This document shows, one piece after another, positions 6,081 to 56,868 of a DNA stretch of 64,000 nt. Position numbers and translations under genes: made by a program. The DNA is from Eledone cirrhosa (Eukaryota). The DNA lies in the NCBI GenBank assembly GCA_964016885.1, contig OZ024740.1, forward strand, positions 56,172,001 through 56,236,000, written 5' to 3'. Under the pieces are notes generated by a model. The model ran no database searches. It worked only from the letters and a program-made list of their open reading frames with translations, and had not been told where the DNA came from. The first letter of the stretch is position 1. Each line of letters opens with the position of its first letter.

Positions 6081-6115
6081 GTGGTCTTTCCCATCTTTTC
6101 CACTCTATTTTAAAC

Positions 6116-9100
6116 ATGACCTCACTCAGAATAGGCAGCATAAATGCGCGTGGCTTGGGGTCGTCATGGAAGCAGGGTCACCTGCTCAACGACCTCAGGT
6201 CACTAAACATAGATGTAGTGGCCATCAGCGAGACCAGAATCTCCGAAGCACGGGCCTTCGCACCGATCTTCGGCGGCTACGATGTGTACGCATCTCCCAG
6301 CCGTCCTGGATCGGGTGGAGGAGTTGCTGTGCTTTTTCGGAGAGGTTTGGATCTCGCCATACGGGCCATCTTCCTGGACCCAGAGGGTAAGCTGGTGGTG
6401 CTGGACGTGACCAGCGGAGACGGGCAAGCTTTCAGGCTAGTGGCCGTCTATGCCCCGACAGGAGCAGGGCGGCCTGATTTCTTCCGGCGTCTGGAGACCT
6501 TTCTTGGAACGTCCCGCTCTTTAGTGTTAGTGGGCGACTGGAACGGGATCTTAGATGCACGCTGGGACTGTGTGGGATTAGCGGATAGGGGTGGAGGGTG
6601 CAAGAGCCTCACCAACCTGCTCAGGCGTTTTGAACTGTCTGACAGGTACCGATTGGATTTCCCGAATGTGCCAATGTGGACTTGGACAAACCGCATAGGG
6701 TCATCCAGATCATATCTAGATAGAGTATTTTGTAGGGAAATAGATAGGTCTAGCATAGGCTGTCCACAATTCAAGATAGTCAGCTACACGGACCACAAAT
6801 TCGTGACCTGTGTGCTTGACTTAGATAGGCTTCATAGACGAGGACCCGGTTACTGGAAGCTAAACGCGTCCTTACCAGCGCGCAAGGCCTACAGAGACCG
6901 GATTAGCGAACTAGTTAAGCGGGCGTTGACGGGGGCCATCGTCAACAACAAGTGGTGGTTTGCTCTGAAAAGAGCGATTAGAATAGAATCGATTAGGTTT
7001 AGTAAGGCTTTAGCAATAGAGAAAAATAGAGCAGAGGGAGAACTAGTTAGAAAATTAGACGAGGCGCTTAGCAAAGGCATTGCGACCGACGTGCTTGCGG
7101 CGAAATTGGCCCTTGACCAATTCTTCAATGCAAAGCACGAAGGCTGCGTTGTCAGAGCTAGGGTGCGTGCTCTCAGACACGAGGGGACGAAAGCCGTTCA
7201 ATGGGCCCGAGTGGCGGAGGCGCGTCGTGGCAACAAAGCCACGATCCGGTCTTTGGTGGACCACGACGGGCGCATGCTACTCGATCCCGGGCAAATGTGT
7301 GAAGCTTTTCAGCGACACTTCGCTCAGCTGTTCGGGGGCAGCGGCGGGCCGGGTAGAGGGATGGACTTTAGTGTCTACCTCGACGGACTGCCGCGGCTCT
7401 CGGCCACTGAGGCGAGGTGTTGCGAAAAGCCGATAACAGCCGCTGAAGTACGGGAGGCAATGACTGGCTGCACAAGGGGTAAATCGCCTGGTTTGGATGG
7501 TCTGCCCTATGAACTTTACGTACAGATGCCAGACTTGTTCGGAGGCCTCTTGGCGGACGTCTACTGCAACTGGCAACAGAACGGGAGAATTCCCAGTTCT
7601 GTGAGCCGAGGAGCGGTGGCACTGCTGAGAAAGGATCCGAACAAGGGGGATAACATAGACAATTTCCGGCCCATAACTCTGCTAAACACAGAGTTTAAGA
7701 TTTTGGCCAAGGTGCTAGCAAAGAGGTTGGCGCTTGTCGTTGGTGGTCTGGTGGGAGAGGCGCAGACATGCGCCATTCCCGACAGATCCATCCACGACAA
7801 CCTCCACCTCATGCGATACATCGTAGAGAGGGTAGCTAGGGAACCTGGCACGGGTGGGTCCTTGATCAATTTAGATCAGTCGAAAGCTTTCGATAGGGTC
7901 GACCATCGTTACCTAGCGGCAGTCCTGAGGGCGGCTGGCTTTGGGCCCGTCTTCAGAGGCTGGATCGCTGCCATGCACAGCGACATCTGCTCTGTGGTGA
8001 GAGTGAACGGTCACCTGTCGGAACCGTTCAACATCATGCGCTCGGTCCGCCAAGGATGTCCCCTCTCGTCCCTCTTGTACGTATTGACTCTCGAGCCATT
8101 ACTGCACAAACTGGAGACGTTGAGGGGAGTCCCGCGCGAACTAGGATGCGGAAGATCCGTGTCAGCATATGCGGACGATGTCACCGTAGTGGTGTCGAAC
8201 GCCAAACACATCGAGGCGATCGGCACTACACTAAGAGAATACGAAGCGGTGACAGGAGCAATGATCAACCAGGAAAAGTCAGTGGGCCTGCAGCTCGGCA
8301 CCTGGAGAGGCAGGTCCATGCCGTCCAACAGCGTCGTCGGGCGCTGGACGGACGGACCGGTTAAATTGCTAGGGGTCTGGTTCGGTCCGGACCTCCAGAC
8401 GGACAAAAACTGGGACGAGGTGACGAGCAGGGTGGCTTCTCTCACCCAGAAATGGGCGGAGAGGAAGCTATCCCTGAAAGGTCGAGCGGAGGTGGCTAAC
8501 GCGTACATCGCGTCTGTCATCTGCTACCGCCTAACCGTCGTACCTTGTCCTAAGCCTCGCCTGACTGCGCTGGAGCGTTTGCTCTTTCGCTTTTTGTGGA
8601 AGGGACGTGCTCCGATGGTCAGGCGGTCCATCTGTTGTCAACACCCGCTACGTGGAGGGCTGGGCATGCCGTGGCTGATGATGCGCAGGCACGCGCTCAG
8701 GCTACGACATCTCCACCTCTTCCTCGACGGTGATCAGGTGTGGTCGCCGTTTGCTAGACGCGTTTTTCCCCAGCTCGTTTCCTTGACGGAGCTGCAGTCC
8801 TGGGTCAAGCGAAGACCGAGAGGGAGCGCCTGGAGACTGGAATGTCTTCAGGCGCTCACAGCCCTCGACCAATCGGGCAATGTGATCGGTGGAAGCTCCA
8901 CCTCGGCGTTCTATAGAGGATTAGTGGAGGGGAAGAGCGACGACGTACTTGGGGAAACTCTAGGCGTCGACGAAAATCAACTAGCCAATCTCTTCGGAAG
9001 AACTTTCGGGCCGGGGCCTATGGACAACTTCCAGAAATCTCTGGCCTGGCAGTGCTACCGAGGAGCCTTGCCAGTTCGGGATAAACTCTACAGGCATGGA

Positions 9101-9535
9101 GGTGCCGTCAGCCGGGCATGTCCGAGATGCGCGCAGGGCGACGAAACCGTCCTGCACGCACTCGTCCAGTGTCCGAAAATTGCTGACTTGTGGGTTTATG
9201 TCGAACACCTGCTGTCGCGTTTAGGACGGATCCAGCTATCATCTGAGTCTATCGTGAGGATTGCCCCGCCCTCCTCCTTTAGCCGGGAAGGGCAGGCAGT
9301 TTTTATCTGTCTGGTGGCCATGGCGAAAGAGATAGTATGGTGGACACGTTTGAAAGGGCTGAAGACGAGCACTTACCTCTTCGGTGATGCTCTGATTGAC
9401 TTTTTCAAATTTCATTTGAAAAGGAAAATCAGAGTAGAGAAGGAAGTGCTCTCTTCCCAGCATTTTGTTGAAAGATGGGTGAGAGAAGCAAGAATGGCCC
9501 GAGTGAATGGGCCGACTCTGAGTATATATCTGTAA
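6116..9535 (+). CDS. LINE ORF2 (APE + RT + CCHC), 1139 aa, intact
   Basis: Same motifs as 72-3491; I count 9 amino-acid differences between the two copies. Confidence 0.97.
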   Translation: MTSLRIGSINARGLGSSWKQGHLLNDLRSLNIDVVAISETRISEARAFAPIFGGYDVYASPSRPGSGGGVAVLFRRGLDLAIRAIFLDPEGKLVVLDVTSGDGQAFRLVAVYAPTGAGRPDFFRRLETFLGTSRSLVLVGDWNGILDARWDCVGLADRGGGCKSLTNLLRRFELSDRYRLDFPNVPMWTWTNRIGSSRSYLDRVFCREIDRSSIGCPQFKIVSYTDHKFVTCVLDLDRLHRRGPGYWKLNASLPARKAYRDRISELVKRALTGAIVNNKWWFALKRAIRIESIRFSKALAIEKNRAEGELVRKLDEALSKGIATDVLAAKLALDQFFNAKHEGCVVRARVRALRHEGTKAVQWARVAEARRGNKATIRSLVDHDGRMLLDPGQMCEAFQRHFAQLFGGSGGPGRGMDFSVYLDGLPRLSATEARCCEKPITAAEVREAMTGCTRGKSPGLDGLPYELYVQMPDLFGGLLADVYCNWQQNGRIPSSVSRGAVALLRKDPNKGDNIDNFRPITLLNTEFKILAKVLAKRLALVVGGLVGEAQTCAIPDRSIHDNLHLMRYIVERVAREPGTGGSLINLDQSKAFDRVDHRYLAAVLRAAGFGPVFRGWIAAMHSDICSVVRVNGHLSEPFNIMRSVRQGCPLSSLLYVLTLEPLLHKLETLRGVPRELGCGRSVSAYADDVTVVVSNAKHIEAIGTTLREYEAVTGAMINQEKSVGLQLGTWRGRSMPSNSVVGRWTDGPVKLLGVWFGPDLQTDKNWDEVTSRVASLTQKWAERKLSLKGRAEVANAYIASVICYRLTVVPCPKPRLTALERLLFRFLWKGRAPMVRRSICCQHPLRGGLGMPWLMMRRHALRLRHLHLFLDGDQVWSPFARRVFPQLVSLTELQSWVKRRPRGSAWRLECLQALTALDQSGNVIGGSSTSAFYRGLVEGKSDDVLGETLGVDENQLANLFGRTFGPGPMDNFQKSLAWQCYRGALPVRDKLYRHGGAVSRACPRCAQGDETVLHALVQCPKIADLWVYVEHLLSRLGRIQLSSESIVRIAPPSSFSREGQAVFICLVAMAKEIVWWTRLKGLKTSTYLFGDALIDFFKFHLKRKIRVEKEVLSSQHFVERWVREARMARVNGPTLSIYL

Positions 9536-9795: not shown

Positions 9796-9844
<49 letters not shown>

Positions 9845-25176: not shown

Positions 25177-26362
25177 TTGAATTAGTATGGTATAGACAAG
25201 TACATATGTTATTTAGGTGTATGATATTGTCAATACTCTGATATGCCCAGTTCCTTGTTGGGTTGTTAATTCACTGGGGAACTGGAGTCATATGAATTCA
25301 AACAAACGAATTTTCGTGTCACAGGTCCCCTTCTCCTCTCATTGGTCAGTTATTAGAACATTCCTCATTCTAAGTGTTGTTATTGTTGGAGTTAGCTTAA
25401 AAATTGATAAAATGGTAGAAGGGACAAGGTGTTAAAGGAACAAAATAACAAAAAAGTGTCAAACTTCCCGTTGTTCAGTTCTGAGAGCATTCCTCAGTCA
25501 GAAGTCTATAGAATTCTTTCTGGGGTGAGGCTCCCTGTAGTGTTTTTGCCTGCTATTGTTCAGTACATTTGACCTCCACCATTATTTTGGTACTGTTGTT
25601 GTTGTAGTGGTCAGCTTATATCTTGCTGCTGCTAACAATTTAGAAGTATCCAGTTTGTGATTTTTCTTCATCCCTCCCGCCACCATCGTAGTGGTGGTGG
25701 TGGGGGGGGGGGTTCATTCATGTATATGAAGAAATATAACGCAATAAATGAAGAAAACAGAAAATAAATAAATAATATAATAAAATAAATTAATTAATAT
25801 AATTTGTGTAATTTGAAAATAAATAAATAAATATAGAATAAAGAATAAAGAGTAAATGAGAGATTGGTGAAAAAGTAATGATAATGTATATGGAGAAGTA
25901 AGAAATAATGTAGGATAAAGTCTGTGTGTGTGTGCTATAACCAATCTCAAGGTCAGAATATGTTGGATAGATTGGTATGATACAAGATGTTAAGATGAGA
26001 TATTCAATGTGTTTGTGTTATAATCTATCTCAACTTAAAATAAATATAAGGTGATACAGTGAAGAGGGCAGAAAACAAATAACAAATTAATAAAGAGAAA
26101 TCAAGATTTAAGATTGGAACTTGAAAGTCAGAAATCTGGTAAATTAAAAGATGTTGGCCAAATTATTATGGCTGTGTCCGATTCTATCTCTAGGCTATCA
26201 TGGTGTCTGCTCCGCCTGGGTTGTTCCCTGTGGCTTGAGGGGAGTTCACAACCTAGGGTGTTGTTATTGCCCATATAGCTTGAGGGAGGTCTGGCCGAGA
26301 GGTGTTTTCATGTTCTGTAGAAGTCCCTATAGCTTGAGGGGAGTTCACATCTTCTTGTGTTG

Positions 26363-27012
26363 CTACTGTCCATATATTTTGAGAAAGGTCCCGGCTCTAA
26401 GGTGTCTGCATGTCCCGAAGAAGTCGGTTCTGAGGTTTATCAGGCCGCTTCCACCTCTTAGTATCTCGAGGGTCTCGTTCAGGCATAGTTTGCATATGCA
26501 AGATCCCCCTTTATCGGGTGGTACTTTCCTGATTATGTACCAGGCCAGAGAGTATGGGGTCCTGTCCAGCTTAAGCTTCCAGATCAGGTCGGAGAGAGCT
26601 GTGCTTTTCCTTTTGGCCTCCTTCTTGAATGAATGGCGATGGTTGTACCAGCGGTCCTTAAAGCTCGTTGATGTGGCTCCTATGTAGATGTGTTCGGAGT
26701 TGGGGGTTTTAACCCTACAACCGTACACTAAGTTCTTCTTGAGACATTCATTACCAAGGGGGCATGATTCGGGGTTTCTGCAGTTGCAGACGGTGGTCGG
26801 CCTCTGCGTGCCTAGATTAGGGTTCTCATTATGTTACATGTTGGTCTTCCCCCATGCTCGGTGGGGGGTCCTTGGGTCTGTTTGTGTTTCTTGGGTGGGC
26901 TCTGGGTCCCCCCTTCCCTCCTTTCACATGGTTCTGCTGAGTGTTTGTATTGCCATCTTCTGGTTGTGTGTGGTTTTTAAGCCTACTTCTGTTGATGCTA
27001 GCTATGTGTTGG
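26363..27012 (-). pseudogene. GIY-YIG endonuclease fragment, inverted arm
   Basis: Mirror of the sense copy; keeps CNCRNPESCPL but has a 2-bp difference near 26835 that shifts the frame. Confidence 0.85.
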
Positions 27013-27014
27013 CA

Positions 27015-27758
27015 CCTGACAAATGCTTCCCGAGTGACCACAGATACCACAGGATCTTCAACAGACACACTGTGAAGCTTTCGTATTCCACCACGAGAAA
27101 TTTGGCCCAACACATAGCTAGCATCAACAGAAGTAGGCTTATAAACCACACAAAACCAGAAGATGGCAATACAAACACTCAGCAGAACCATGTGAAAGGA
27201 GGGAAGGGGGGACCCAGAGCCCACCCAAGAAACACAAACAGACCCAAGGACCCCCCACCGAGCATGGGGGAAGACCAACATGTAACACATAATGAGAACC
27301 CTAATCTAGGCACGCAGAGGCCGACCACCTTCTGCAACTGCAGAAACCCCGAATCATTCCCCCTTGGTAATGAATGTCTCAAGAAGAACTTAGTGTACGG
27401 TTGTAGGGTTAAAACCCCCAACTCCGAACACCTCTACATAGGAGCCACATCAACGAGCTTTAAGGACCGCTGGTACAACCATCGCCATTCATTCAAGAAG
27501 GAGGCCAAAAGGAAAAGCACAGCTCTCTCCGACCTGATTTGGAAGCTTAAGCTGGACAGGACCCCATACTCTCTGGCCTGGTACATAATCAGGAAAGTAC
27601 CACCCGATAAAGGAGGATCTTGCATATGCAAACTATGCCTGAACGAGACCCTCGAGATACTAAGAGGTGGAAGCGGCCTGATAAACCTCAGAACCGACTT
27701 CTTCGGGACATGCAGACACCTTAGAGCCGGGACCTTTCTCAAAATATATGGACAGTAG
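27015..27758 (+). pseudogene. C-terminal linker + GIY-YIG endonuclease of a PLE (probably Naiad-type), 5'-truncated
   Basis: HRIFNRHTVKLSYS, CNCR..PL..CL, LVY..YIGATSTSFKDRWYNH, TALS..IWKLK, CKLCLNE, LINLR..CRH. Clade assignment is from motif recollection only. The part of ORF 26688-27014 is antisense read-through of the inverted arm. Confidence 0.85.
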
Positions 27759-28967
27759 CAACACAAGAAGATGTGAACTCCCCTCAAGCTATAGGGACTT
27801 CTACAGAACATGAAAACACCTCTCGGCCAGACCTCCCTCAAGCTATATGGGCAATAACAACACCCTAGGTTGTGAACTCCCCTCAAGCCACAGGGAACAA
27901 CCCAGGCGGAGCAGACACCATGATAGCCTAGAGATAGAATCGGACACAGCCATAATAATTTGGCCAACATCTATAACACAAACACTTTTAATTTACCAGA
28001 TTTCTGACTTTCAAGTTCCAATCTTAAATCTTGATTTCTCTTTATTAATTTGTTATTTGTTTTCTGCCCTCTTCACTGTATCACCTTATATTTATTTTAA
28101 GTTGAGATAGATTATAACACAAACACATTGAATATCTCATCTTAACATCTTGTATCATACCAATCTATCCAACATATGCTGACCTTGAGATTGGTTACAG
28201 CACACACACACACACTTTATCCTACATTATTTCTTACTTCTCCATATACATTATCATTACTTTTTCACCAATCTCTCATTTACTCTTTATTCTTTATTCT
28301 CTATTTATTTATTTATTTTCAAATTACACAAATTATATTAATTAATTTATTTTATTATATTATTTATTTATTTTCTGTTTTCTTCATTTATTGCCTTATA
28401 TTTCTTCATATACATGAATGAACCCCCCCCCCCCTCCCACCACCACCACCACTACGATGGTGGCGGGAGGGATGAAGAAAAATCACAAACTGGATACTTC
28501 TAAATTGTTAGCAGCAGCAAGATATAAGCTGACCACTACAACAACAACAGTACCAAAATAATGGTGGAGGTCAAATGTACTGAACAATAGCAGGCAAAAA
28601 CACTACAGGGAGCCTCACCCCAGAAAGAATTCTATAGACTTCTGACTGAGGAATGCTCTCAGAACTGAACAATGGGAAGTTTGACACTTTTTTTGTTATT
28701 TTGTTCCTTTAACACCTTGTCCCTTCTACCATTTTATCAATTTTTAAGCTAACTCCAACAATAACAACACTTAGAATGAGGAATGTTCTAATAACTGACC
28801 AATGAGAGGAGAAGGGGACCTGTGACACGAAAATTCGTTTGTTTGAATTTATATGACTCCAGTTCCCCAGTGAATTAACAACCCAACAAGGAACTGGGCA
28901 TATCAGAGTATTGACAATATCATACACCTAAATAACATATGTACTTGTCTATACCATACTAATTCAA

Positions 28968-41251: not shown

Positions 41252-41860
41252 ATGGTGGCTGCCAACTCGTTTTCGAGTACGGCCACTACTTTATATCCAT
41301 GTAGGAGAACCCCTACCGATGCGCTGAACGGGTGTGACTTTTTAGTCCAGCCAGGGACTTGAAAACTCTGGTACAAACACTACACTTGTGACAATTATTG
41401 ACACATAGTGCTAGGCCCATGGTACCATGTGACGACAAGTGCAGGGAGATCTCCAGATATAAAGCAATGCCTGTGCCGTGAAGCTTTTATAGTGAGCAAA
41501 GGCACTGCACAAAGCCAGTCCCACTCTCTTAACCAAGATGATATTTACCAAAAAGAAGAACAAGTCAACATCATTGGATACCATCATGGTTGCAGGTGTT
41601 ATATCAGAGTTTTTCTTCTCCTAGAATTCTGCCTTGACAAAGGCTAAGGGGTCATCTCTCCCGGTGATTTTGGATGGCCATTGACTCTTAAGAGCTCCTT
41701 TGCCATTTGACAGGTTTTGTTTTTAGTCCTGCAGGATGTCCAAAGTCACCCTCCTCACCAAGAAACCTTGGTGGGGTTGCCAGTTTAGTCGCCAACGTCC
41801 CGACCATGAGACAGGTTGTACTGGGATACATGTTACCAGTAGCACCAACTGGTGACCTGA
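41252..41860 (-). mobile_element. Family A RTE-derived element, full length (609 bp)
   Basis: Reference copy; (CATA)n on both sides. Confidence 0.88.
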
Positions 41861-42279: not shown

Positions 42280-42888
42280 ATGGTGGCTGCCAACTCGTTT
42301 TCGAGTACGGCCACTACTTTATATCCATGTAGGAGAACCCCTACCGACGCGCTGAACGAATGTGACTCTTTAGTCCAGCCAGCGACTTGAAAACTCTGGT
42401 ACAAAGACTACACTTGTGACCATTATTGACACATAGCGCAGGGCCCAAGGCACCATGCGACGACAAGTGCAGAGAGATCTCCAGATATAAAGCAATGCCT
42501 GTGCTGTGAAGCTTTTATAGTGAGCAAAGGCACTGCACAAAGCCAGTCCCACTCTCTTAACCAAGATGATATTTACCAAAAAGAAGAACAAGTCAACATC
42601 ATTGGATACCATCAGGGTTGCAGGTGTTATATCAGAGTTTTCCTTCTCCTAGAATTCTGCCTTGACAAAGGCTAAGGGGTCATCTCTCCCGGTGCTTTTG
42701 GATGGCTATTGACTCTTAAGAGCTCCCTTGCCCTTTGACAGGTTTTGTTTTTAGTCCTGCAGGATGTCCAAAGTCACCCTCCTCACCAAGAAACCTTGGT
42801 GGGGTTGCCAGTTTAGTCGCCAACGACCCGACCATGAGACAGGTTGTACTGGGATACATGTTACCAGTAGCACCAACTGGTGACCTGA
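42280..42888 (-). mobile_element. Family A element, full length
   Basis: Colinear with 41252-41860; (CATA)n flanks. Confidence 0.88.
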
Positions 42889-42957: not shown

Positions 42958-43450
42958 CAAATTAAAAACAAATGAGGAGGAATATGTTGAGATAGATGGC
43001 ACTAAGGAATGTTGGTGGAACCTGAAAATAAAAACTGCCACCAATTTAAAGTACAACCGGCCTGATATTGTTGTTTGGGACCACACATTGAAAACGTGCT
43101 CTGTTGTGGCGATCATCTGCCAACGTTGTAAGAAAAATGCAGGAGAAGGGGGAAATCTGCGGATCATGGGGGCTCTACAGATCCAGTATCCAAGATACAC
43201 CTTGAGCTTCATACGCATTATTATTGGAGCTACAGGTTATATAACAACCAAAGTATAACTGAAATTGGATTTGTGAACAAAGAGCGCCACTTCTTAATCC
43301 ATAAACTACAAATGGCAGCGATATCTGGCACCTAAAAATTTGCAAACTTTCTTGCGATTCAAGGGATGACAATTTCTTTTCTTTTACAGCCTTGACATCA
43401 GGAAGGTAGCCGCTGAAAAATGTACTCGAGATTAAGAAAAGGAGAAAAGA
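42958..43450 (+). mobile_element. 5'-truncated, decayed copy of the (CATA)n-embedded R4-clade LINE
   Basis: Matches ~56349-56866 with small deletions; (CATA)n on both sides. Confidence 0.82.
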
Positions 43451-43467
43451 CATACATACATACATAC

Positions 43468-44037
43468 ATGGTGGCTGCCAACTCGTTTTCGAGTACGACC
43501 ACTACTTTATATCCATGTAGGAGAAACCCTACCGATGCGCTGAACGAGTGCGACTTTTTAGTCCAGCCAGTGACTTGAAAACTCTGGTACAAACACTACA
43601 CTTGTGACAATTATTGACACATGGTGCTGGGCCCATGGTACCATGTGACGAGAAGTGCAGAGAGATCTCCAGATATAAAGCAATGCCTGTGCCGTGAAGC
43701 TTTTATAGTGAGCAAAGGCACTGCACAAAGCCAGTCCCACTCTCTTAACCAAGATGATATTTACCAAAAAGAAGAACAAGTCAACATCATTGGATACCAT
43801 CAGAGTTGCAGGTGTTATATCAGAGTTTTCCTTCTCCTAGAATTCTGCCTTGACAAAGGCTAAGGGATCATCTCTCCCGGTGATTTTGGATGGCCATTGA
43901 CCCTTAAGAGCTCCTTTGCCCTTTGACAGGTTTTGTTTTTAGTCCTGCAGGATGTCCAAAGTCACCCTCCTCACCAAGAAACCTTGGTGGGGTTGCCAGT
44001 TTAGTCGCCAACGACCCGACCATGAGACAGGTTGTAC
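43468..44037 (-). mobile_element. Family A element (slightly 5'-truncated)
   Basis: Colinear with the other copies; (CATA)n flanks. Confidence 0.88.
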
Positions 44038-44070: not shown

Positions 44071-44932
44071 TGACCAATTTACAGAAAAGGTTGTGCATGG
44101 ATACTTGAGGCGTAAAACACAGACCATAGAGGGGATAAACCACTCAAAACGCCTGACATGGAGTTCCGACAAGTTTATGACATCACACCTTGAGGGATAT
44201 CTCTATGCAATACAGGAACAAGAACTCCCTACCAAATATCTGCTGCACAAAAAGGAGGGCCAGCAGCTGACAATAAATGTAGGCTAAGTAAAGCAAAGAT
44301 CGAGGATGTAAGCCACATTGTTGCCAGCTGCGAAAGAATGTCATCTCGCTACTACCTCCCCATGAGACACGATGCGATAGTTAGAACCATCTAGAACGCA
44401 CTTCGGAAAACAAAGTTAACAACAAACGAGGAAGAATATATTGAGACAGATGGCACTAAGGAATACTGGTGGAACCTGAAAATAAAAACTGCCACTAAAT
44501 TAAAGCACAACCGGCCTGATATTGTTGTTTGGGACCACACATTGAAAACGTGTTCTGTTGTGAAGATCAGCTGCCCACTTGATGTAAACGTTGTCAGAAA
44601 AATACAGGAGAAGGAGGACATCTACGGACCATTGATGAGGAGTTTACAAATCCAGTATCCAAGATACACCTTTAGCTTCTTACCCATCATTATTGGAGCT
44701 ACGGGTTATATACCAACCCGTTTGGACCAAAGTATGACAGAACTTGGATTTGCGGACAAAAAGCGCAGCTCCCTAATTCATAGTCTACAAATGGCTGCTA
44801 TAGCTGGCACCTTCAAAATTTGCAAAACATTCTTGCGATTCAAGGGATGACAATTTCTTTTCTTTTACAACCTTGCCACCAGGAAGGTGGCTGGTAAAAA
44901 AAAATATACTCGTAATTAAGAGAAAGAGATAA
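44071..44932 (+). mobile_element. 5'-truncated copy of the (CATA)n-embedded R4-clade LINE
   Basis: Matches 56017-56868; RLE motifs RHD, NRPDIVV, ISCP; C-terminus KICKTFLRFKG*; (CATA)n on both sides. Confidence 0.88.
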
Positions 44933-47229: not shown

Positions 47230-48793
47230 GTTCTGCGAGAGCTACTTTCACAGGTTTTTCAGGAATGAGTTTGAGGAAATCTTCATTGACGACAGACGGT
47301 TGATTCAAAAGTTCTTCAAAGTGCTCTCGTCACCCTTGTAGAATTCCTTGTGAGTCACGAAGAAGCTCCTTGCCATCCTTGCTGCGAAGCGGTGTCACCA
47401 GAGAAGAAGACGGTCCATAAACTTCACGCAAGAGACTGTACAACAGCTTTGTGTTATTCGAATCTGATGCAGCTTGTATCTCATCAGCCTTCTCACTCCA
47501 CCACTTATCCTTCATCTGAGAAAGACTCCGTCTAACACGGAGTTCCTTATACAACATATTCTTCTCCTGTGGTTTTGCTGTCAAGTAGCGTGACAGAGAA
47601 CGCCTCTTATCAGCCAACAAGTCATCTATATGTTCATCATTCTCATTAAACCAGTTTTGATGTTTTCTCTGTACCAATCCCAGAACACGCCTGCCTACAT
47701 CATAAACCGACTTTTTAAGGGTCGGCCAATCCTCATCAAGATCTGCAACATGCATCTCTTCTCGCAATGTCCTCTTCACATTTTTATCTCTAAGACGAAC
47801 AGCATTCAATCTTCTGGGCAGGGTAACACCAGAAACCCGAATTTTACGTTTAGTGATTAGTTTCACTTTTGCGCGTACCAGGTGGTGTTCCGTCCAGCAC
47901 TCAGCTCCACGAAGAGCACAAACACACTGCACATCCCGTCTGTCACGCATCCTGACAAGGACGTAGTCCAAAAGATGCCATTCCTTAGATGCCGGATGCA
48001 TCAATGTGGTCTTAAATTTGTTCTTTTGCTGGAACATTGTGTTGGTAACACACAGATCCAGCTCTTCACACATCTGCACCAGGAGCATACCATTGTTGTT
48101 GCACTTTCCCACCCCATGCCTTCCGATTACATTCCATGTGTTAAAATCCCTACCCACTTCAGCATTAAAGTCCCCAAGCACGATGACCTTGTCTGCCTGA
48201 GGGATATTTCTTAAACACCTTTCATTGCATGGTAAAAAGACACTTTTTCTTGATCGACAGAATTCATAGTTCGAGCATACACACTCACCAGGGTTGCATA
48301 TCTTCCTTTGTCCAGCGGAATTCCCATGGACATAAGATGCTCACTAATACCACTGGGAATTTTCTAATGTATCCACAAGACCAGTCTTACCAGCAAATGC
48401 TAGCCAGCCCCTCTTCTGGTTCCTTCATCTCTTCCTTTCCAGAAGAATGTATATTTTCCACAAAAATCTGTAAGATAACCAACTCCAGCTAACCTCGTCT
48501 CAGATAAAGCTACGATATCAAGATCGTAACATCGAAGTTCCTTTGCAACAAGAGCGGTCCTTCGTTCAGGATGTTCCAAGGAATCCCTGTCAAGCAGCGT
48601 CCGTACGTTCCAGCAGCCCATATATAATGCCTTGTTTGGCTCTATTACCGTTGCACAATGACGAGCGGGCCCAAGCTGTGATTCCCTGGGACCCCTGCCC
48701 TTATTTCCAATTATCTCTTTTGTTCCCGAACCCTTATTGCTAATTTTCTCCTTTATATTGTTTTGGAACATCATTGAATTTGGAAAATAAAAG
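47230..48793 (-). pseudogene. RTE-clade LINE, APE-coding 5' half (3'-truncated, decayed)
   Basis: GCWNVRTLLD..RTALVAKEL..DIVALSETRL, YTFFWKG, LGDFNAEVG, HPASKEWHLLDYVLVR, GAECWTEHHLV. Confidence 0.88.
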
Positions 48794-48811: not shown

Positions 48812-50578
48812 TTGGATAACCAAAAGCTTAGAGATCTTCAGGGTGGCAGATAACATCAGACAGTTGTTGAGCAAAAGTATGAAGGCCTGGGAAATAGAGT
48901 TAACATCGGGTGGAGAATCCTTGGGAGGCGTGAAGATGAAGAGACGTATCTTCCAGAGAGATAGTTTGTCCCCTCTGTTGTTTGTCCTTTCCCTGATACC
49001 CTAGACCATTATACTGCGAAAAGTGAGAGCAGGATACAAGTTGGGAAATGGAGAGCTTACCATCAACCACCTCCTCTTCTTGGACGATCTTAAACTCTTT
49101 GGGAAGAGTGAGAAGGAGTTGGATGTACCTGTTGACACTGTCTGTATTTTCAGCAATGATATATGTATGCAATTTGGTATTAATAAGTGTGGAGTCCTAG
49201 TGATGAAGAGGGGTAAATTGAGCAGAAGCAACGGAATCCAGGTACCAACAGGTGAGATGATAAAGGAAATTGACACTGAAGAAGGATACAAATATTTAGG
49301 TGTTCTGGAGGCTGATGACATCAACATAAAAAAATGAAGGAATTGATAAGATCTGAGTACATTAGGAGAGTAAGGAGCGTATTAAAATCACATCTAAATA
49401 GTAGGAATGTCATAAGTGCAGTGAATTTCCGCGCTGTGTCTATTATTAGGTACAGTGCGGAAATTCTGAAATGGAATGTTGCTGAACAAAAAGAATGCAT
49501 AGGAAGACTATGAAGCTATTGACTATCTACAACATGTTCCACAAGAGGAGTGATGTCGATAGACTCTACTTAAAGAAGTCTTATCAGCATAGAGGACTGT
49601 GTTCAGATGGAGAAAAACAACCTGCACAAATACGTGACTGACGGTAGGGAGCCAATGCTCAGAATTGTACTGAAGGAGAGGACAATAGACCAGGAGATGT
49701 CCAAGGAGGAAATAACAACAAGGAGGAAGAGCAACCTTCATGAAAAATCCCTTCATAGTACCTTCTTTGAGAAAACTGAATTTAGATATCCACAGACATA
49801 GAACTGGTTAAAAAGAGGAGACCTTAAAAAGGCTACAGAAGGAATGCTAATGGCTGCGCAAGAGCAGGCCCTCAAAACGAAGTGGGTGAAACACCATATT
49901 TACAAGGAGGAGGCTAGTCCACTGTGCAAGATCTGTGGAGAGAGAGGAGACTGTGGCTCACATTGTATCCGAGTGTAAACCCCTAGCCCAGACTCACTAT
50001 AAATGCTGGAGACATGATGTTATGGGCAGGGTGATCCACTGGCACCTATGCAAAGTAAACAATTTACCACGTTCTGAGAAGTGGTATGAGCATAAGCCAG
50101 AGTCGGTGATAGAAAACTATCAGGTGAAGGTGCTATGGGATTTTAGGATACAGACGGGCAACAAACTGGAACACAATAGGCTTGACCTGGTGGTTTTGGA
50201 CAAGGAAAAAAGATCGTGCCTGGTTGTAGATGTAGCCTGCCCATTTGACACGAGAGTGCAAGAAAAGGAGAGGGAGCAAATTAACCGATACCAGGACTTA
50301 AAGTGGGAGGTAAAAAGGATTTGGAACTGCCATGAAGTCAGTGTCGTCCGGATTGTCATAGGCGCACTAGGGACTATCTCAAAAGGTTTCCAGGGATGGT
50401 TAAAGAAAATTGGCCCCGCCACGCTTTTTGGAACGCTTCAAAAGGCATTCTTGCTGGGAACAACAAGAACCCTCCGATACGTCCTGAATATCTGAGGCTG
50501 CAGGTAGTGGCTTGATATTCATTTCAACAAACTTTCCAGTTAACTAACATCAATGACTGAGACTCAAAGAACAATAAT
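48812..50578 (+). mobile_element. 5'-truncated Dong/R4-clade RLE LINE inserted in (TAA)n
   Basis: IFQRDSLSPLLF, HLLFLDDLKLF, YKYLG, ETVAHIVSEC..RHD, KVLWDF, NRLDLVV, DVACPFD; (TAA)6 at the 5' junction and AATAAT-rich at the 3' junction. Confidence 0.9.
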
Positions 50579-50579
50579 A

Positions 50580-51455: not shown

Positions 51456-51564
51456 CAAACATTCTTACGATTCAAGGGATGACAATTTCTTTTCTTTTAC
51501 AATCTTGCCACCAGGAAGGTGGCCGGTCAAAAAAAATATATTTGAAATTAAGAGAAAGAGATAA
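51456..51564 (+). mobile_element. 3'-terminal ~110 bp copy of the R4-clade LINE
   Basis: Matches 56760-56868; (CATA)n on both sides. Confidence 0.82.
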
Positions 51565-51653: not shown

Positions 51654-53020
51654 ATGGTGGCTGCTAACTCATTTTCGAGTACGGTCACTACTATATATCC
51701 ATGTAGGAGAACTACTACCGATGCGCTGAACGAGTGTGACTTTTTAGTCCAGCCAGCTACTTGAAAACTCTGGTACAAACACTGCATTTGTGACAATTAT
51801 TGATACATAGTGCTGGGCCCATGGTACCATGTGATGAAAAGTGCAGAGATCTCCAGATATAAAGCAATGCCTGTGCTGTGAAGCTTTTATAGTGAGCAAA
51901 GGCACTGCACAAAGCCAGTCCCACTCTCTTAACCAAGATGATATTTACCAAAAAGAAGAACAGGTCAACATCATTGGATACCATCAGGGTTGCAGGTGTT
52001 ATATCAGAGTTTTCCTTCTCCTAGAATTCTGCCTTGACAAAGGCTAAGGGTTCATCTCTCCCGGTGATTTTGAATGGCCATTGACCCTCAAGAGCTCCTT
52101 TGCCCTTTGACAGGTTTTGTTTTTAGTCCTGCAGGATGTCTAAAGTCACCCTCCTCACCAAGAAACCTTGGTGGGGTTGCCAGTTTAGTCGCCAACGACC
52201 CGACCATGAGACAGGTTGTACTTGGATACATGTTACCAGTAGCACCAACTGGTGACCTGACACACATACATACATACATACATACATACATGGTGGCTGC
52301 CAACTCGTTTTCGAGTATGGCCACTACTTTATATCCATGTAGGAGAACTCCTACCGATGCGCTGAACGAGTGTGACTTTTTAGTCCAGCCAGCGACTTGA
52401 AAACTCTGGTACAAACATTACACTTGTGACAATTATTGACACATAGTGCTGGGCCCATGGTACCATGTGACGACAAGTGCAGAGAGATCTCCAGATTTAA
52501 AGCAATGCCTGTGCCGTGAAGCTTTTATAGTGAACAAAGGCACTGCACAAAGCCAGTCCCACTCTCTTAACCAAGATGATATTTACCAAAAAGAAGAACA
52601 AGTCAACATCATTGGATACCATCAGAGTTGCAGGTGTTATATCAGAGTTTTCCTTCTCCTAGAATTCTGCCTTGACAAAGGCTAAGGGATCATCTCTCCC
52701 GGTGATTTTGGATGGCCATTGACCCTTAAGAGCTCCTTTGCCCTTTGACAGGTTTTGTTTTTAGTCCTGCAGGATGTCCAAAGTCATATATATCTGTTCT
52801 TTTATAGTTGTATGTATGTATGTATGTATGTATGTATGTATGTATGTATGTATGTATGTATGTATGTATGTATGTATGTATGTACGTACATACATACATA
52901 CATACATACATACATACATACATACATACATGGTGGCTGCCAACTCGTTTTCGAGTACGGCCACTACTTTATATCCATGTAGGAGAACCCCTACCGATGC
53001 GCTGAACGAGTGTGACTTTT
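51654..53020 (-). mobile_element. Three family A copies: 51654-52260 (full), 52290-52786 and 52930-53020 (5'-truncated)
   Basis: All share the same 3' end and (TATG)n tail; variable 5' truncation is typical of target-primed reverse transcription. Confidence 0.88.
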
Positions 53021-53116
53021 ATACATACATACATACATACATACATACATACATACATACATACATACATACATACATACATACATACATACATACATAC
53101 ATACATACATACATAC

Positions 53117-56100
53117 GATTCAAGAACAACGTTTAAAACACAGTTGTAGAATTAAAAACTAACTGAAAAGAAATATTACCCAAGCTGTGAATAACTTTAA
53201 ATTTGATTCTGACAGAACTTTGTCGAAACTTTTAAAGAAGATCATCGACTATTTTGAAAACTAAATACAAAATATTAGTGAATAGACGAACTCATCATGG
53301 CAAAACGTACAAGTCTCCTTCGACCAAATCGCAACTACAACCGTTGTATACAATGGAGCTACGAGCTTAACAAAGAATTATATGAAGCATACAAACAATC
53401 TGAACCCCAAAAAGTTCGGTTTTATGCAAAGGCTAAAAACTTTATAGAACTCCAAACACCCAGAATTAGACTTTTCTCCAAAGCATTTAAATGAACAGGC
53501 AAAACGTATCATTAGATGTAAATTGATACATCTAACGGAATTGAGTGATACTACACATACAGCCCTTGTAGACAACCACCCCACCTCCACTGACAGACAA
53601 AGAGAATGGCCAGCTAAATCTAACAGTGAACAGCTCACCAACAATGTTGCTGAAATCCATCCCACTGCCACTGAAGAACAGCGAGAATGGTCAGCTAACT
53701 CTAGTAGTAATTGTCACCACATCAACAACGAGGCTGAAATTCATGACTCTACTGTACAAACAGAGCACAAAAAACTTGTGAACACCTTACAAGTGATATG
53801 GGACGATATATTTCAAGAGATACACAGCCTTAATGTGAGTGAGAGACCATACAACACCAGAATCAGTAAAGAACCCACTAAATTGGAATTGGAAGCAGTG
53901 AACGAAATAGCTGGCAATTATCTGAAGGATATACGATCTAAAGGTGTAGAAACGACATTTGAAACGTTTAATATTTTGTTATATGTTTCAGCTGTCACAT
54001 TGCTATCTTATAACACACATCTAAAACCACGCAATCAAGTTACAAACAAAAAGCCTGAACCAGCGTGGATGCGAAATTTAAAAAGCAAAATTTTGTCCCT
54101 GAGACGAAGTATCTCACACATCGCAGTTGTTATGAAATGCAACATAGAGAACAACTTCACACGACACCAGGAAAACCTAAAAAAAAGTTAGAGAGACGAT
54201 TTGGAGATACAAAATTTAAAACTTTGAACTCCAAATTACACCAGTTGAAAGAACAACTCACAGCTACAACAGAAAGACTAAAATATAAGTCAACAGCACA
54301 TAAACGACAAGTGCTAAATAGATTGTTTGCCAGAGATCCTAAATCAGTTTATCGCAGCTTCGGTGGCAAAAGCTCAATCTCTGTAAATGACACCCCTTCA
54401 AAAGAACAGGTTGAGAGCTACTGGAGATCTGTATGGGAAACGGATGACGGATTCTACAGACAAACTAATTGGCTAAAAGAACTGGAACAGGACTACTGCC
54501 AACATGTCCAGACAAAACAATATGACATAGATGGGTCAATACTGGAAACAGCTCTACAGAAAATGTCGAATAGGAAATCATCAGGCCCAGACCTCATTAC
54601 AGGATACTGGTTGAAGAATTTCACTTTCTATCGGCAAGATCGCATACGGCTGTTTACAGAAACCATTAAAGGCACACAAGAACTGCCCAGATGATTATCA
54701 ACTGCCACTACTCTCCTCATTTCCCAAAATAGCCAAACCCCTCTTACCGCCCAATAGCCTGCCAAAACATCATGTATAAATTATATACTGGGTGCCTTAA
54801 CCTGTTCCTACAGGATCACTGTGCTACCAACAACATCATAACACCTGAGCAAGCTGGTGGAAAGAGGGAGGTGTGGAGTTGCATAGATCACCTACTAACT
54901 AATAAAATGATTCAAGAAAAAAACAACAAAGAATCGCAGAAACATGACTGTGGTGTGGCTGGACGATCGAAAAGCATTTGATAGTGTACCTCATGGGTGG
55001 ATTGTTAAGGCTTTACAGTTAGCCAAAGTCCCTCAATCACTGGTAGCTGCTGTTGAACGTCTGACCAAGAACTGGTACACCAATTTGATCCTTAGAGGTG
55101 AGAAGGAGCAGGTTAAGACTGATAAGATTCTTTACCAGAAGGGCATCTTTCAGGGTGATAGCTTGTCAGTGCTACTCTTCGTTCTCTCACTAAATCCACT
55201 ATCTTACCTACTCAGGAAACAAGGTGGACAAAGAAGTGGGTCCAGAAGTATCTCCCATCTTTTCTTTGTTGATGACCTGAAGTTGTATGGGCCAAATATC
55301 AATGACATCAAGAAACAATTGGACCTCATTACATAATTTTCAACCGACATCAAAATGAAATTTGGGGAGTCCAAGTGTGTATATTTGGCAGTAAAACGTG
55401 GAAGAGCTGTGCCCTCCTCTAGAAATCTAGAGATGAACGGCCTGACAATACAACCTCTACAGTCAGGTGACAACTACAGATATCTTGGACAGGATGAGAA
55501 TGTCAGATATGATGGACCCATAAATAAGGAGAGAACCAGAACTGAATACCTCAGAAGAGTAAAGAAAATATGGTCATTAGAACTGTCAACGCACAACAAA
55601 TACATTTCCCACAATACTTATGCTGTGCCAATTCTGACGCCAACATTTGGCCTGCTGAACTGGTCATTGCAAGAACTAAGTGAGATGGATGTTAGAACTC
55701 ACAAACTTCTCAGTGTTACTGGGAACTTTAACATCAATGGTGATGTGGATAGGCTATACTTCTCACGCAAGGAAGGTGGCCGGGGTCTAAAATCCATATT
55801 AACATCATATGAGACCCGGATAGTAATACTGAAGCAACACCTTCAACAGAGGAAAAAGGTTAGCAACCATCTTGCCCAGGTTTATGAGCATGAAAAAAAA
55901 TATATCATTAGAATAGCCACTGATCTGGAGGAGAGATATGGAATAAAGCCTGATATAAATCTCTCACACAGAGAAATCGGAAGATCCTATTCAATGTTCA
56001 AACAAGATGAAAAAATTGACCAATTTACAGAAAAAGTTGTGCATGGATACTTGAGACGTAAAACACAGACCATAGAGGGGATAAACCACTCAAAAAGCCT

Positions 56101-56868
56101 GGCATGGAGTTCCGACAAGTTTATGACATCACACCTTGAGGGATATCTCTATGCAATACAGGAACAAGAACTCCCTACCAAATATCTGCTGTACAAATGG
56201 GGAAGGCCATCAGCTGACAATAAATGTAAAACAAAGATCGAGGATGTAAGCCACATTGTTGCCAGCTGCGAAAGAATGTCATCTCGCTACTACCTCTCCA
56301 TGAGACACGATGGGATAGCTAGAACCATCTGGAACGCACTTCGGAAAACAAAGTTAACAACAAACGAGGAAGAATATATTGAGACAGATGGCACTAAGGA
56401 ATACTGGTGGAACCTGAAAATAAAAACTGCCACCAAATTAAAGCACAACCGGCCTGATATTGTTGTTTGGGACCACACATTGAAAATGTGTTCTGTTGTG
56501 GAGATCAGCTGCCCACTTGATGTAAACGTTGTCAGAAAAATACAGGAGAAGGAGGACATCTACGGACCATTGATGAGGAGTTTACAAATCCAGTATCCAA
56601 GATCACCTTTAGCTTCATACCCATCATTATTGGAGCTACGGGTTATATACCAACCCGCTTGGACCAAAGTATGACTGAACTTGGATTTGCGGACAAAGAG
56701 CGCAGCTCCCTAATTCATAGTCTACAAATGGCTGCGATAGCTGGCACCTTCAAAATTTGCAAAACATTCTTGTGATTCAAGGGATGACAATTTCTTTTCT
56801 TTTACAACCTTGCCACCAGGAAGGTGGCCGGTCAAAAAATTGTACTCGAAATTAAGAGAAAGAGATAA
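53117..56868 (+). mobile_element. Apparently full-length R4/Dong-clade RLE non-LTR retrotransposon embedded in (CATA)n
   Basis: A single long ORF broken by frameshifts (53297 to ~56787); ~180 nt leader; ~80 nt 3'UTR; long (CATA)n upstream and short (CATA)n downstream. Confidence 0.92.
53297..56787 (+). pseudogene. RT + CCHC + PD-(D/E)xK restriction-like endonuclease polyprotein, frameshifted
   Basis: KSSGPDLITGYWLK, EQAGGK, WLDDRKAFDSVPHGWI, GIFQGDSLS, HLFFVDDLKLY, YRYLG, RKEGGRGL, EDVSHIVASC, RHD, NRPDIVV, VEISCP. Confidence 0.92.

What the first reader, a model, noticed from the sequence alone, without database searches (positions are those of the whole stretch)
53117..56868. R4/Dong-clade RLE retrotransposon apparently specific for (CATA)n
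Seen: four copies (full-length, ~860, ~490 and ~110 bp) share the 3' end ..GAGAAAGAGATAA, and each has same-orientation (CATA)n at both ends, including the three different 5' truncation points. Known: R4-clade RLE elements are often site-specific (R4 in rDNA, Dong in TAA repeats). I am not aware of a described CATA/TATG-specific member, but cannot check. A second R4-clade family in the same window uses (TAA)n, allowing a direct comparison of specificity determinants. Potentially useful as a sequence-specific integrase scaffold.
Basis: partly seen in the sequence, partly recalled or inferred. Interest (0 to 1): 0.72.

Follow-up and report, generated by a model that had tools for sequence, protein, structure and literature searches.

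The report
CATA-repeat-targeting Dong-like retrotransposon
This is a broken, front-clipped copy of a jumping gene with about 5,000 copies in this genome, most of them inside the four-letter repeat CATA and facing one way; it likely belongs to a separate branch of the Dong/R4 retrotransposons that aims at four-letter repeats instead of the usual TAA, which would allow a test of how such elements change their landing site.

Summary
The CATA link is real. The family has 4,952 exact 3′-end hits in G000. CATA follows within 6 nt in 2,111 of 2,434 forward-strand hits. The 5′ flank is (CATA)n in 49 of 61 sampled junctions (40 of 44 young copies) and 29 of 30 true 5′ ends, against a 1.7% background. 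No flank is best fitted by (TA)n, which is 30-fold commoner. Corrections: the 'full-length' copy lacks ~450 nt of 5′ UTR and is frame-broken, and the ~490-bp copy is a diverged (84%) copy with a different 3′ end. The window's second R4-like family uses (TAA)n but is only 30% identical, so it is a poor comparator. In a protein tree the element falls in a separate branch with a second CATA family of this genome and metagenome relatives flanked by (CATA)n or (CTTA)n. TAA elements form the sister branch. Most likely mechanism (inferred): protein-directed nicking and target-primed reverse transcription in existing arrays; tail-guided priming is not excluded. No such target appeared in 8 paper searches, but Repbase and key papers could not be read. 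This scan has already noted the same family many times in this genome. Verdict: new variant of a known kind.

The parts
53024..53116 (+). (CATA)n array at the 5' truncation point of the long copy (target remnant)
53117..56868 (+). Family A, R4/Dong-type RLE non-LTR retrotransposon; 5'-truncated by ~450 nt of 5' UTR; 97% identical to the family majority; ORF broken
53297..53520 (+). ORF start and N-terminal basic arm plus three-helix SANT/Myb-like domain (frame-broken in this copy)
   Evidence: fold modelled on sister copy L105
54720..55490 (+). Reverse transcriptase domain (approximate limits; FVDD at 55265-55276)
   Evidence: Pfam RVT_1 E=1e-25 on sister copy L103; motif mapping
56222..56269 (+). 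CCHC zinc knuckle (first Cys lost in a 9-nt deletion in this copy)
56453..56775 (+). Restriction-like endonuclease (RPD..E motif at 56453-56503) to the ORF stop
56776..56868 (+). Short 3' UTR ending ..GAGAAAGAGA(T/A)AA
56869..56884 (+). (CATA)4 at the 3' junction
44071..44932 (+). Family A, 862-nt 5'-truncated copy, (CATA)n on both sides
42959..43450 (+). Diverged family-A-like copy (84%), different 3' end, (CATA)n on both sides
51457..51564 (+). Family A, 108-nt 3' fragment, (CATA)n on both sides
48812..50579 (+). Family B, TAA-targeting Dong-type element, 5'-truncated, 30% aa identity to family A
41254..41860 (-). 607-nt non-coding RTE-like element with an (ATGT)n tail, in the same arrays on the opposite strand; further window copies near 42281-42888, 43469-44037, 51655-52260 and 52291-52786

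Best explanation
This is a dead, 5'-truncated copy of an abundant R4/Dong-type retrotransposon whose copies sit in (CATA)n arrays in one orientation, likely because its own protein recognises and nicks that repeat and primes reverse transcription there. Shown: the domain layout, ~5,000 3' ends and 337 exact 5' ends, CATA at both junctions including truncation points, one orientation, a fixed resumption phase (element | CATA), no flanks best fitted by the far commoner (TA)n, and a separate branch whose members with visible ends carry (CATA)n or (CTTA)n. Inferred by analogy with R2 (PMC10499050, passages read): the N-terminal basic arm and SANT/Myb-like helices bind repeats upstream of the site; the RLE nicks the (TATG)n strand so that a ..TATG(T) 3'-OH primes cDNA synthesis from the RNA 3' end; synthesis usually stops early, and the cDNA is joined to the upstream part of the same array with little or no target duplication. 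The four-letter target is likely an old property of a whole branch and not a recent switch from TAA in this genome.
For: 4,952 exact 3' anchors, reversed-pattern control 3. 2,111 of 2,434 forward hits have CATA within 0-6 nt. 148 of 151 reverse-strand true 5' ends have YAYA within 0-4 nt, and 29 of the first 30 have >=3 CATA in 24 nt. Positional sample: 49 of 61 5' junctions are CATA, 40 of 44 in copies >=96% identical; background 1.7%. Best-fitting unit in 91 5' flanks: CATA 77, TATG 1, none 13, TA/CA/GA/TAA 0, although (TA)n arrays outnumber CATA arrays 242 to 8 in 200 kb. Control family B: TAA at 18 of 21 5' and 29 of 30 3' junctions, CATA at none. Family C (49% aa, 2,674 anchors, unrelated 3' UTR): CATA at 12 of 14 5' and 29 of 30 3' junctions. 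Metagenome relatives: L282 CATA at both ends, L283 CTTA at both ends, L281 and L286 CTTA 5', L287 CTTA 3'; they form one branch with A and C (SH-aLRT 100). Only 46 of 70 3' junctions have the plain TAA/AAA end, and the second downstream unit starts with C in only 40 of 50 young copies; both fit a target-derived flank better than a uniform RNA tail. Upstream arrays were never under 19 nt in the 40 young CATA-flanked copies, while 11 of the same 40 downstream arrays were (threshold chosen after the fact).
Against: No biochemistry. No intact ORF in 32 long copies (longest 708 codons). 12 of 61 5' junctions failed the CATA test: 3 are explained by later events, 1 is rearranged, 1 has a short array, 1 (L154) faces (TATG)n, and 6 have non-repeat flanks. 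An unrelated RTE-like element lives in the same arrays (51 of 58 truncated 5' ends at TATG; loci mostly chosen through CATA elements), so tail-guided targeting can give a similar pattern. Median upstream and downstream array lengths do not differ (53.5 vs 43.5 nt, p=0.44). The Myb/SANT fold match is weak (best Z 5.8; no Foldseek E<=0.001). A helix-3 residue that seemed to separate CATA from CTTA users fails in family C. The tree is a quick SH-aLRT tree, midpoint-rooted, with no named Dong or R4 sequence in it.
Confidence: 0.62

Rival explanations
1. Tail-guided targeting: the endonuclease is lax, read-through transcripts carry a (CAUA)n tail, and only nicks in (TATG)n can anneal to that tail and prime. 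The preference would then sit in the RNA, and CATA versus CTTA users would differ by tail, not by protein.
For: It explains the fixed orientation and phase equally well. The RTE-like co-tenant, which likely uses a different (APE) endonuclease, shows the same both-ends pattern on the other strand. No N-terminal residue tested separates CATA from CTTA users. R2 can be retargeted by 3' homology at a foreign nick (PMC10499050, passages).
Against: One third of 3' junctions are ragged (24 of 70), whereas homology makes R2 initiation precise (PMC10499050). Downstream arrays can be 7-10 nt while upstream ones stay >=19 nt. The repeat class (3-mer vs 4-mer) follows deep protein branches with distinct N-termini.
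Confidence: 0.28
2. The arrays are made by the elements: 3' CATA is a tail, and 5' CATA comes from template jumps or head-to-tail stacking onto other CATA-tailed copies, or from later repeat expansion. There is no target preference as such.
For: Stacks are common: 8 of 61 copies have another R4-type 3' end within 250 nt upstream, and 20 of 61 have part of the RTE-like element.
Against: 33 of 61 have neither upstream, and the RTE-like pieces lie on the opposite strand, so they cannot donate a same-sense tail. CATA abuts truncation points scattered along the whole element. No consistent duplication of flank variants was found.
Confidence: 0.07
3. Assembly artefact: contigs or long reads are mis-joined through CATA arrays.
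For: Microsatellite-rich, highly repetitive DNA; a few sampled loci are duplicates of each other (L168/L170, L169/L171).
Against: Family B never shows CATA. Contigs of public run X1 show many CATA-to-internal-position joints and a steep 3'-to-5' depth gradient (possibly the same source as the window). Metagenome contigs from other sources show the same design.
Confidence: 0.02

Closest known systems
Dong elements of the R4 clade (Bombyx mori Dong; ostracod Dong1/2; Dong-like elements of insects, molluscs and cnidarians)
   Same: Single ORF with a SANT/Myb-like N-terminus and no N-terminal zinc finger, RT and C-terminal RLE; insertion in a microsatellite (PMC7998251, passages read). Families B and D here follow this TAA pattern.
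   Different: The target is (CATA)n, and (CTTA)n in relatives, not (TAA)n. Only ~30% aa identity to TAA-flanked elements, which form the sister branch. A conserved N-terminal RxNR[DN]Y arm. No HDV-like ribozyme detected, whereas B. mori Dong has one (PMC3774820, passages read).
R4 of nematodes (28S rDNA-specific)
   Same: Same domain layout. 28S-flanked relatives L353 and L354 align over RT-RLE at ~25% (28S identity of the flank recognised from memory).
   Different: The target is a dispersed microsatellite with thousands of copies. No fixed target-site duplication was seen; R4's ~13-bp duplication is recalled.
Octopus 'Dong-R4' LINE families
   Same: Five recently active Dong-R4 families with 1,129 insertions averaging ~4.2 kb in O. 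vulgaris (PMC13282606, passages and Table 1). A Dong consensus in O. bimaculoides (PMC9115989, passages). R4-Dong is almost confined to cephalopods among molluscs (PMC10294476, passages). The closest named protein here is from Argonauta hians, 68% over 57% of the query. Family A may well be one of these catalogued families.
   Different: No target sequence is stated in the passages read ('target' occurs 0 times in PMC13282606; 'target site' 0 times in PMC9115989). Their sequence libraries and supplements were not examined.
R2 (R2Bm, R2Tg)
   Same: Best solved-structure matches over the RT (E=3e-26); the model for upstream Myb binding and bottom-strand nicking.
   Different: R2 has N-terminal zinc fingers and a unique 28S target; only the RT region matched.
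Other microsatellite-specific RLE elements: Togen ((TG)n) and some HERO families
   Same: RLE elements that target microsatellites (PMC4640811, passages read).
   Different: NeSL/HERO-related lineages with different repeats; not compared by sequence here.

Membership tests
RLE-type non-LTR retrotransposon | Single ORF with RT | tested here: met
   1,169-aa ORF in the majority of 25 long copies; RVT_1 E=1e-25 on natural copy L103
RLE-type non-LTR retrotransposon | C-terminal CCHC, RHD and PD-(D/E)-type endonuclease; no APE domain | tested here: met
   CCHC 980-997, RHD 1009, RPD..E 1058-1075; no APE family hit on L103 or on full-length relatives L282 and L283
RLE-type non-LTR retrotransposon | Fixed 3' end, variable 5' truncation, no LTRs | tested here: met
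   4,952 3' anchors vs 337 5' anchors; scattered truncation points
R4 clade | N-terminal SANT/Myb-like domain without zinc fingers | tested here: inconclusive
   Confident three-helix model (pLDDT 80.6) with invariant W20 and W50 shared with TAA elements; top fold matches are mostly Myb/SANT-like, but best Z is 5.8 and none reaches 8
R4 clade | RT/ORF phylogeny groups it with named R4 and Dong elements | tested here: inconclusive
   Groups as sister to TAA-flanked elements, with 28S-flanked elements outside; no named reference sequence and no R2, NeSL or HERO outgroup in the tree
R4 clade | Sequence-specific insertion in a repeated target | tested here: met
   (genomic pattern; no enzyme assay)
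Dong (narrow sense) | (TAA)n target | tested here: not met
   0 of 61 family-A 5' flanks are TAA-rich; met by family B
Dong (narrow sense) | 5' HDV-like self-cleaving ribozyme (shown for B. mori Dong) | tested here: inconclusive
   No Rfam ribozyme hit. My descriptor found none in 7 sequences and had no positive control
R4 (narrow sense) | 28S rDNA target | tested here: not met
   Copies are dispersed over many contigs in microsatellites
Catalogued Repbase/Dfam family with this target | Sequence match to an entry that states a CATA/TATG target | not testable with these tools
   No Repbase or Dfam here; Kojima and Fujiwara 2004 and Fell et al. 2025 are not held

The most novel reading that the evidence does not exclude
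An old, unnamed branch of the R4 clade, sister to the TAA-targeting Dong elements and present in several hosts, is specific for four-letter C(A/T)TA microsatellites. Its protein reads the repeat through an N-terminal basic arm and a single SANT/Myb-like domain, with CATA and CTTA specificities interleaved on the tree. It would give natural pairs at 43-50% identity, including intact ORFs (L282 CATA, L283 CTTA), for mapping how an RLE retrotransposon changes target.
Probability: 0.45. Interest if true: 0.68.

Novelty: new variant of a known kind. Interest (0 to 1): 0.52.

Why it matters
Target changes in site-specific RLE retrotransposons are seen across lineages but rarely have close, testable pairs, and this protein class is being developed for gene insertion. 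Here one genome holds two CATA and two TAA families, and relatives with open reading frames are flanked by CATA or CTTA, a one-base difference in the repeat unit. That makes the protein-versus-tail question directly testable. It also explains why (CATA)n arrays in this genome collect polarised stacks of retroposons. As a tool scaffold its value is limited: the target is a dispersed, many-copy repeat, not a safe harbour, and no intact copy was seen among 32 long ones in this genome.

Tried and rejected
1) 'Recent TAA-to-CATA switch within this genome' (my first reading) was rejected: A and C lie in a deep separate branch from B and D. 2) A one-residue code in recognition helix 3 (LN in CATA users A and L282, LR or QR in CTTA users) was rejected: family C targets CATA and has LR. 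3) Target-site duplication: of 16 young copies with variant units downstream, 5 had the variant upstream, mostly trivially; the one 30-nt match (L157) lies next to another copy's 3' end and looks like a tandem duplication. No TSD is claimed; pure arrays cannot show one. 4) Length asymmetry of arrays: the medians do not differ (p=0.44); only the minimum differs. 5) Search for an intact ORF: none in 32 long copies; 337 5' ends exist and most were not examined. 6) A single-sequence fold of 531 aa gave pLDDT 41 and was discarded. Foldseek on the N-terminal model gave no E<=0.001. Pfam has no family for the N-terminus. 7) A 5' ribozyme was not found. 8) Expression: no RNA holder listed; this is no evidence either way. 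Runs X5 and X6 (organisms B and C) hold pieces of the element, too patchy to read flanks. 9) double-count on one strand, so only the other strand was used. caught only off-parity junctions (699 hits) and was not used as a fraction. 10) Literature: 8 searches listed no paper on a CATA/TATG- or CTTA-specific R4/Dong element. Five wanted papers were not held, and no supplements were read.
Full report
OBSERVATION. Four related copies lie on the + strand at 53117-56868, 44071-44932, 42959-43450 and 51457-51564, each between (CATA)n runs. Three end in GAGAAAGAGATAA (3 exact matches; 0.12 expected with 1 mismatch). The 492-nt copy ends differently and is 84% identical to the family majority. The long copy is not full-length: most copies found with its first 200 nt continue upstream to a fixed start, (CATA)n|(A)ATGGCGACC, about 450 nt further. 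The majority of 25 long copies is 4,224 nt, and the window copy matches it from about position 450 at 97%. The long copy has six indels and several stops.

WHAT IT IS. The majority sequence (family A) has one 1,169-aa ORF with FVDD at 660, CCHC at 980-997, RHD at 1009 and RPD..E at 1058-1075. A natural 708-aa frame (L103) hits Pfam RVT_1 at 1e-25 and R2 proteins in the PDB at 3e-26 over the RT. The first 90 residues, folded with a 44-row alignment, give three helices at pLDDT 80.6. The best fold matches are mostly Myb/SANT-like DNA-binding domains (Zeste Z 5.8, rmsd 2.5, 64 aligned; GT-1; TRF1), but none reaches Z 8 and Foldseek gave nothing at E<=0.001. This fits the SANT/Myb-like N-terminus reported for R4/Dong elements (PMC7998251, passages read) without proving it. 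The 25 long copies differ from the majority by 1.7% on average (0.6-3.2%; chosen by likeness to the window copy). None of 32 long copies had an intact ORF. G000 is 3.0 Gb. An octopod-like host is inferred from the closest named protein (Argonauta hians, 68% over 57% of the query) and from a SINE recognised from memory.

GENOME-WIDE FLANKS. An 18-nt 3' anchor that contains no flank has 4,952 exact hits (control 3), and the true 5' end has 337. On the strand without double counting, 2,111 of 2,434 3' anchors have CATA within 0-6 nt, and 148 of 151 5' ends have YAYA within 0-4 nt; neither short motif has a shuffle control. I then examined 70 of the first 73 anchor hits on C1 (3 skipped: one already fetched, two next to a fetched hit; a few of the 70 are duplicates). 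The 5' junction was in view for 61. Of these, 49 had >=2 CATA in 24 nt, as did 29 of the first 30 true 5' ends. The background in 20 arbitrary 10-kb stretches is 1.7%. In copies >=96% identical it was 40 of 44; in older ones 9 of 17. Of the 12 misses, two are later SINE insertions with CATA at the true junction (L165, L167), one is a small internal deletion by eye (L147), one is rearranged (L140), one has a short array (L180), one faces (TATG)n (L154), and six have non-repeat flanks. Among 91 5' flanks the best unit was CATA 77, TATG 1, none 13, and never TA, CA, GA or TAA, although (TA)n arrays outnumber CATA arrays 242 to 8 in the background. At the 3' end, 65 of 70 have CATA within ~10 nt; the link is TAA in 27, AAA in 19 and ragged in 24. 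No consistent target duplication was found.

OTHER FAMILIES IN THE GENOME. Family B (window 48812-50579) has >=3 TAA at 18 of 21 5' and 29 of 30 3' junctions and CATA at none (30 best hits). It is 30% identical to A. Masking A and B exposed family C (49% aa, a different 3' UTR ending ..AAAACCAGAAGAA|CATA). C has 2,674 anchors and CATA at 12 of 14 5' and 29 of 30 3' junctions. Family D has TAA at the five 3' ends in view. A 607-nt non-coding element with an (ATGT)n tail occupies the same arrays on the opposite strand; 51 of 58 truncated 5' ends abut TATG (loci mostly chosen through A or C, so biased). Its first 193 nt match (83%) a copy followed by a weakly APE-like frame (E=0.004), and RT frames with an (ATGT)n tail occur nearby; the label RTE-like rests on recalled motifs.

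RELATIVES ELSEWHERE. One metagenome scan kept 80 of 407 relatives. Of the six closest loci placed in the tree, L282 (45% over the full ORF) has (CATA)n at both ends, L283 (43%) has (CTTA)n at both ends, L281 and L286 have it 5', L287 has it 3', and L285 shows only a short CATA run. Of 22 more distant loci (~30%) with a 3' end in view, 19 end in (TAA)n, one in (AATA)n, one in (CAA)n and one in no clear repeat. Two others sit in what I recognise as 28S rDNA, and one related to them (L356) shows no repeat. A quick IQ-TREE tree of 55 rows (4 own families, 31 of 80 loci, 20 of 120 proteins) splits them into a four-letter branch (A, C, L281-283, L285-287 and all 20 proteins; SH-aLRT 100), a TAA branch (B, D and the rest; 99) and the 28S group. 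The 20 proteins were picked as top hits of A and have no known flanks, the root is the midpoint, and no named element is included. The four-letter branch shares an N-terminal RxNR[DN]Y arm. A helix-3 residue that seemed to separate CATA from CTTA fails in family C. These metagenome contigs are single and probably collapsed, so they show ends, not truncation points.

HOW IT LIKELY WORKS. By analogy with R2Bm, where N-terminal domains bind upstream (-34 to -22) and the RLE cuts the bottom strand (PMC10499050, passages read), the protein would bind upstream repeats, nick the (TATG)n strand in a fixed phase and prime cDNA synthesis. Most events stop early and join the upstream part of the same array. 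Support for a protein role: the repeat class follows protein branches, one third of 3' junctions are ragged, the second downstream unit often varies (C at its first position in 40 of 50 young copies), and upstream arrays were never under 19 nt in 40 young copies while 11 downstream ones were (threshold post hoc; medians equal, p=0.44). The main rival is priming guided by a read-through (CAUA)n tail. The RTE-like co-tenant shows that a different enzyme can reach the same arrays, and nothing here excludes that route. Self-made arrays are unlikely: 33 of 61 copies have neither an R4 3' end nor an RTE-like piece upstream. Contigs of run X1 show the same CATA-to-internal joints (possibly the same source as the window). 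I put protein-directed targeting at 0.62, tail-guided at 0.28.

KNOWN OR NEW. It works like Dong (microsatellite-specific RLE element) but fails Dong's (TAA)n target; R4-clade membership is likely but was tested without named references. PMC7998251 states that the Dong target is (TAA)n in most insects, molluscs and cnidarians. Octopus Dong-R4 families are catalogued (PMC13282606, PMC9115989, PMC10294476; passages read) with no target given in those passages; their libraries and supplements were not seen and may contain this family. PMC4640811 (passages) lists other microsatellite-specific RLE elements; PMC3774820 (passages) shows a 5' ribozyme in B. mori Dong, which I did not find here; PMC13708176 (passages) had nothing on Dong. 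Eight searches listed no CATA/TATG- or CTTA-specific member, but Repbase, Dfam, Kojima and Fujiwara 2004 and Fell et al. 2025 were out of reach. This scan has noted the same system before in this genome (111 notes fit the look-up); those notes are not independent support.

VERDICT. Real and well supported as a genomic pattern; a new target variant, and probably a distinct branch, of a known class of site-specific retrotransposon; mechanism inferred. Interest 0.52; new variant of a known kind.

Noticed in passing
L194:250-4095, L157, L251-L280 (not in the window): Family C: a second abundant (2,674 anchors) CATA-flanked R4-type family, 49% aa identical to family A, often stacked head to tail with it.
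   Followed up: yes
L128, L236, L069, L071, L062: Family D: a second TAA-flanked Dong-type family ending ..GATAAATGCAACTG|TAA, often stacked with family B.
   Followed up: partly
window 41254-41860 (-) and six or more other window copies: A 607-nt non-coding RTE-like element with an (ATGT)n tail sits in the same arrays on the opposite strand, with TATG also at its 5' truncation points.
   Followed up: partly
family A nt 33-39 (e.g. L109 near 380); L281, L282, L283 5' ends: A short hairpin followed by GGA(C/T)GTG lies in the first ~35 nt of four members of the four-letter branch. It resembles a downstream promoter element (recalled), but the spacing from the 5' end varies.
   Followed up: no
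L165 and L167, family A nt ~3982: The same tRNA-type SINE (label recalled) has inserted at the same CATTATTATT site inside family A in two loci, suggesting its own ATT preference.
   Followed up: partly
L289, L290, L310: Within the TAA branch, close relatives end in (AATA)n or (CAA)n, so smaller target or tail shifts also occur there.
   Followed up: no
window 5948-9535 (+): An uninterrupted 1,195-codon frame with APE, RT and zf-RVT domains: an apparently intact APE-type LINE ORF, ending near an (ATT)n run at 9798-9844; a 3' piece with the same end lies near 3742.
   Followed up: no
window 47330-48340 (-): Fragment of an APE-type LINE (weak Exo_endo_phos_2 hit) just upstream of the family B copy.
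   Followed up: no
window ~25760-28375: Mirror-image AT-rich repeats at 25761-25856 and 28279-28374 enclose frames at 26148-27758; possibly a DNA transposon with terminal inverted repeats.
   Followed up: no
L193:1484-2300: An older R4-type fragment (34-55% aa to family A) with yet another 3' UTR, followed by CATA-like repeats; possibly a third CATA family.
   Followed up: no
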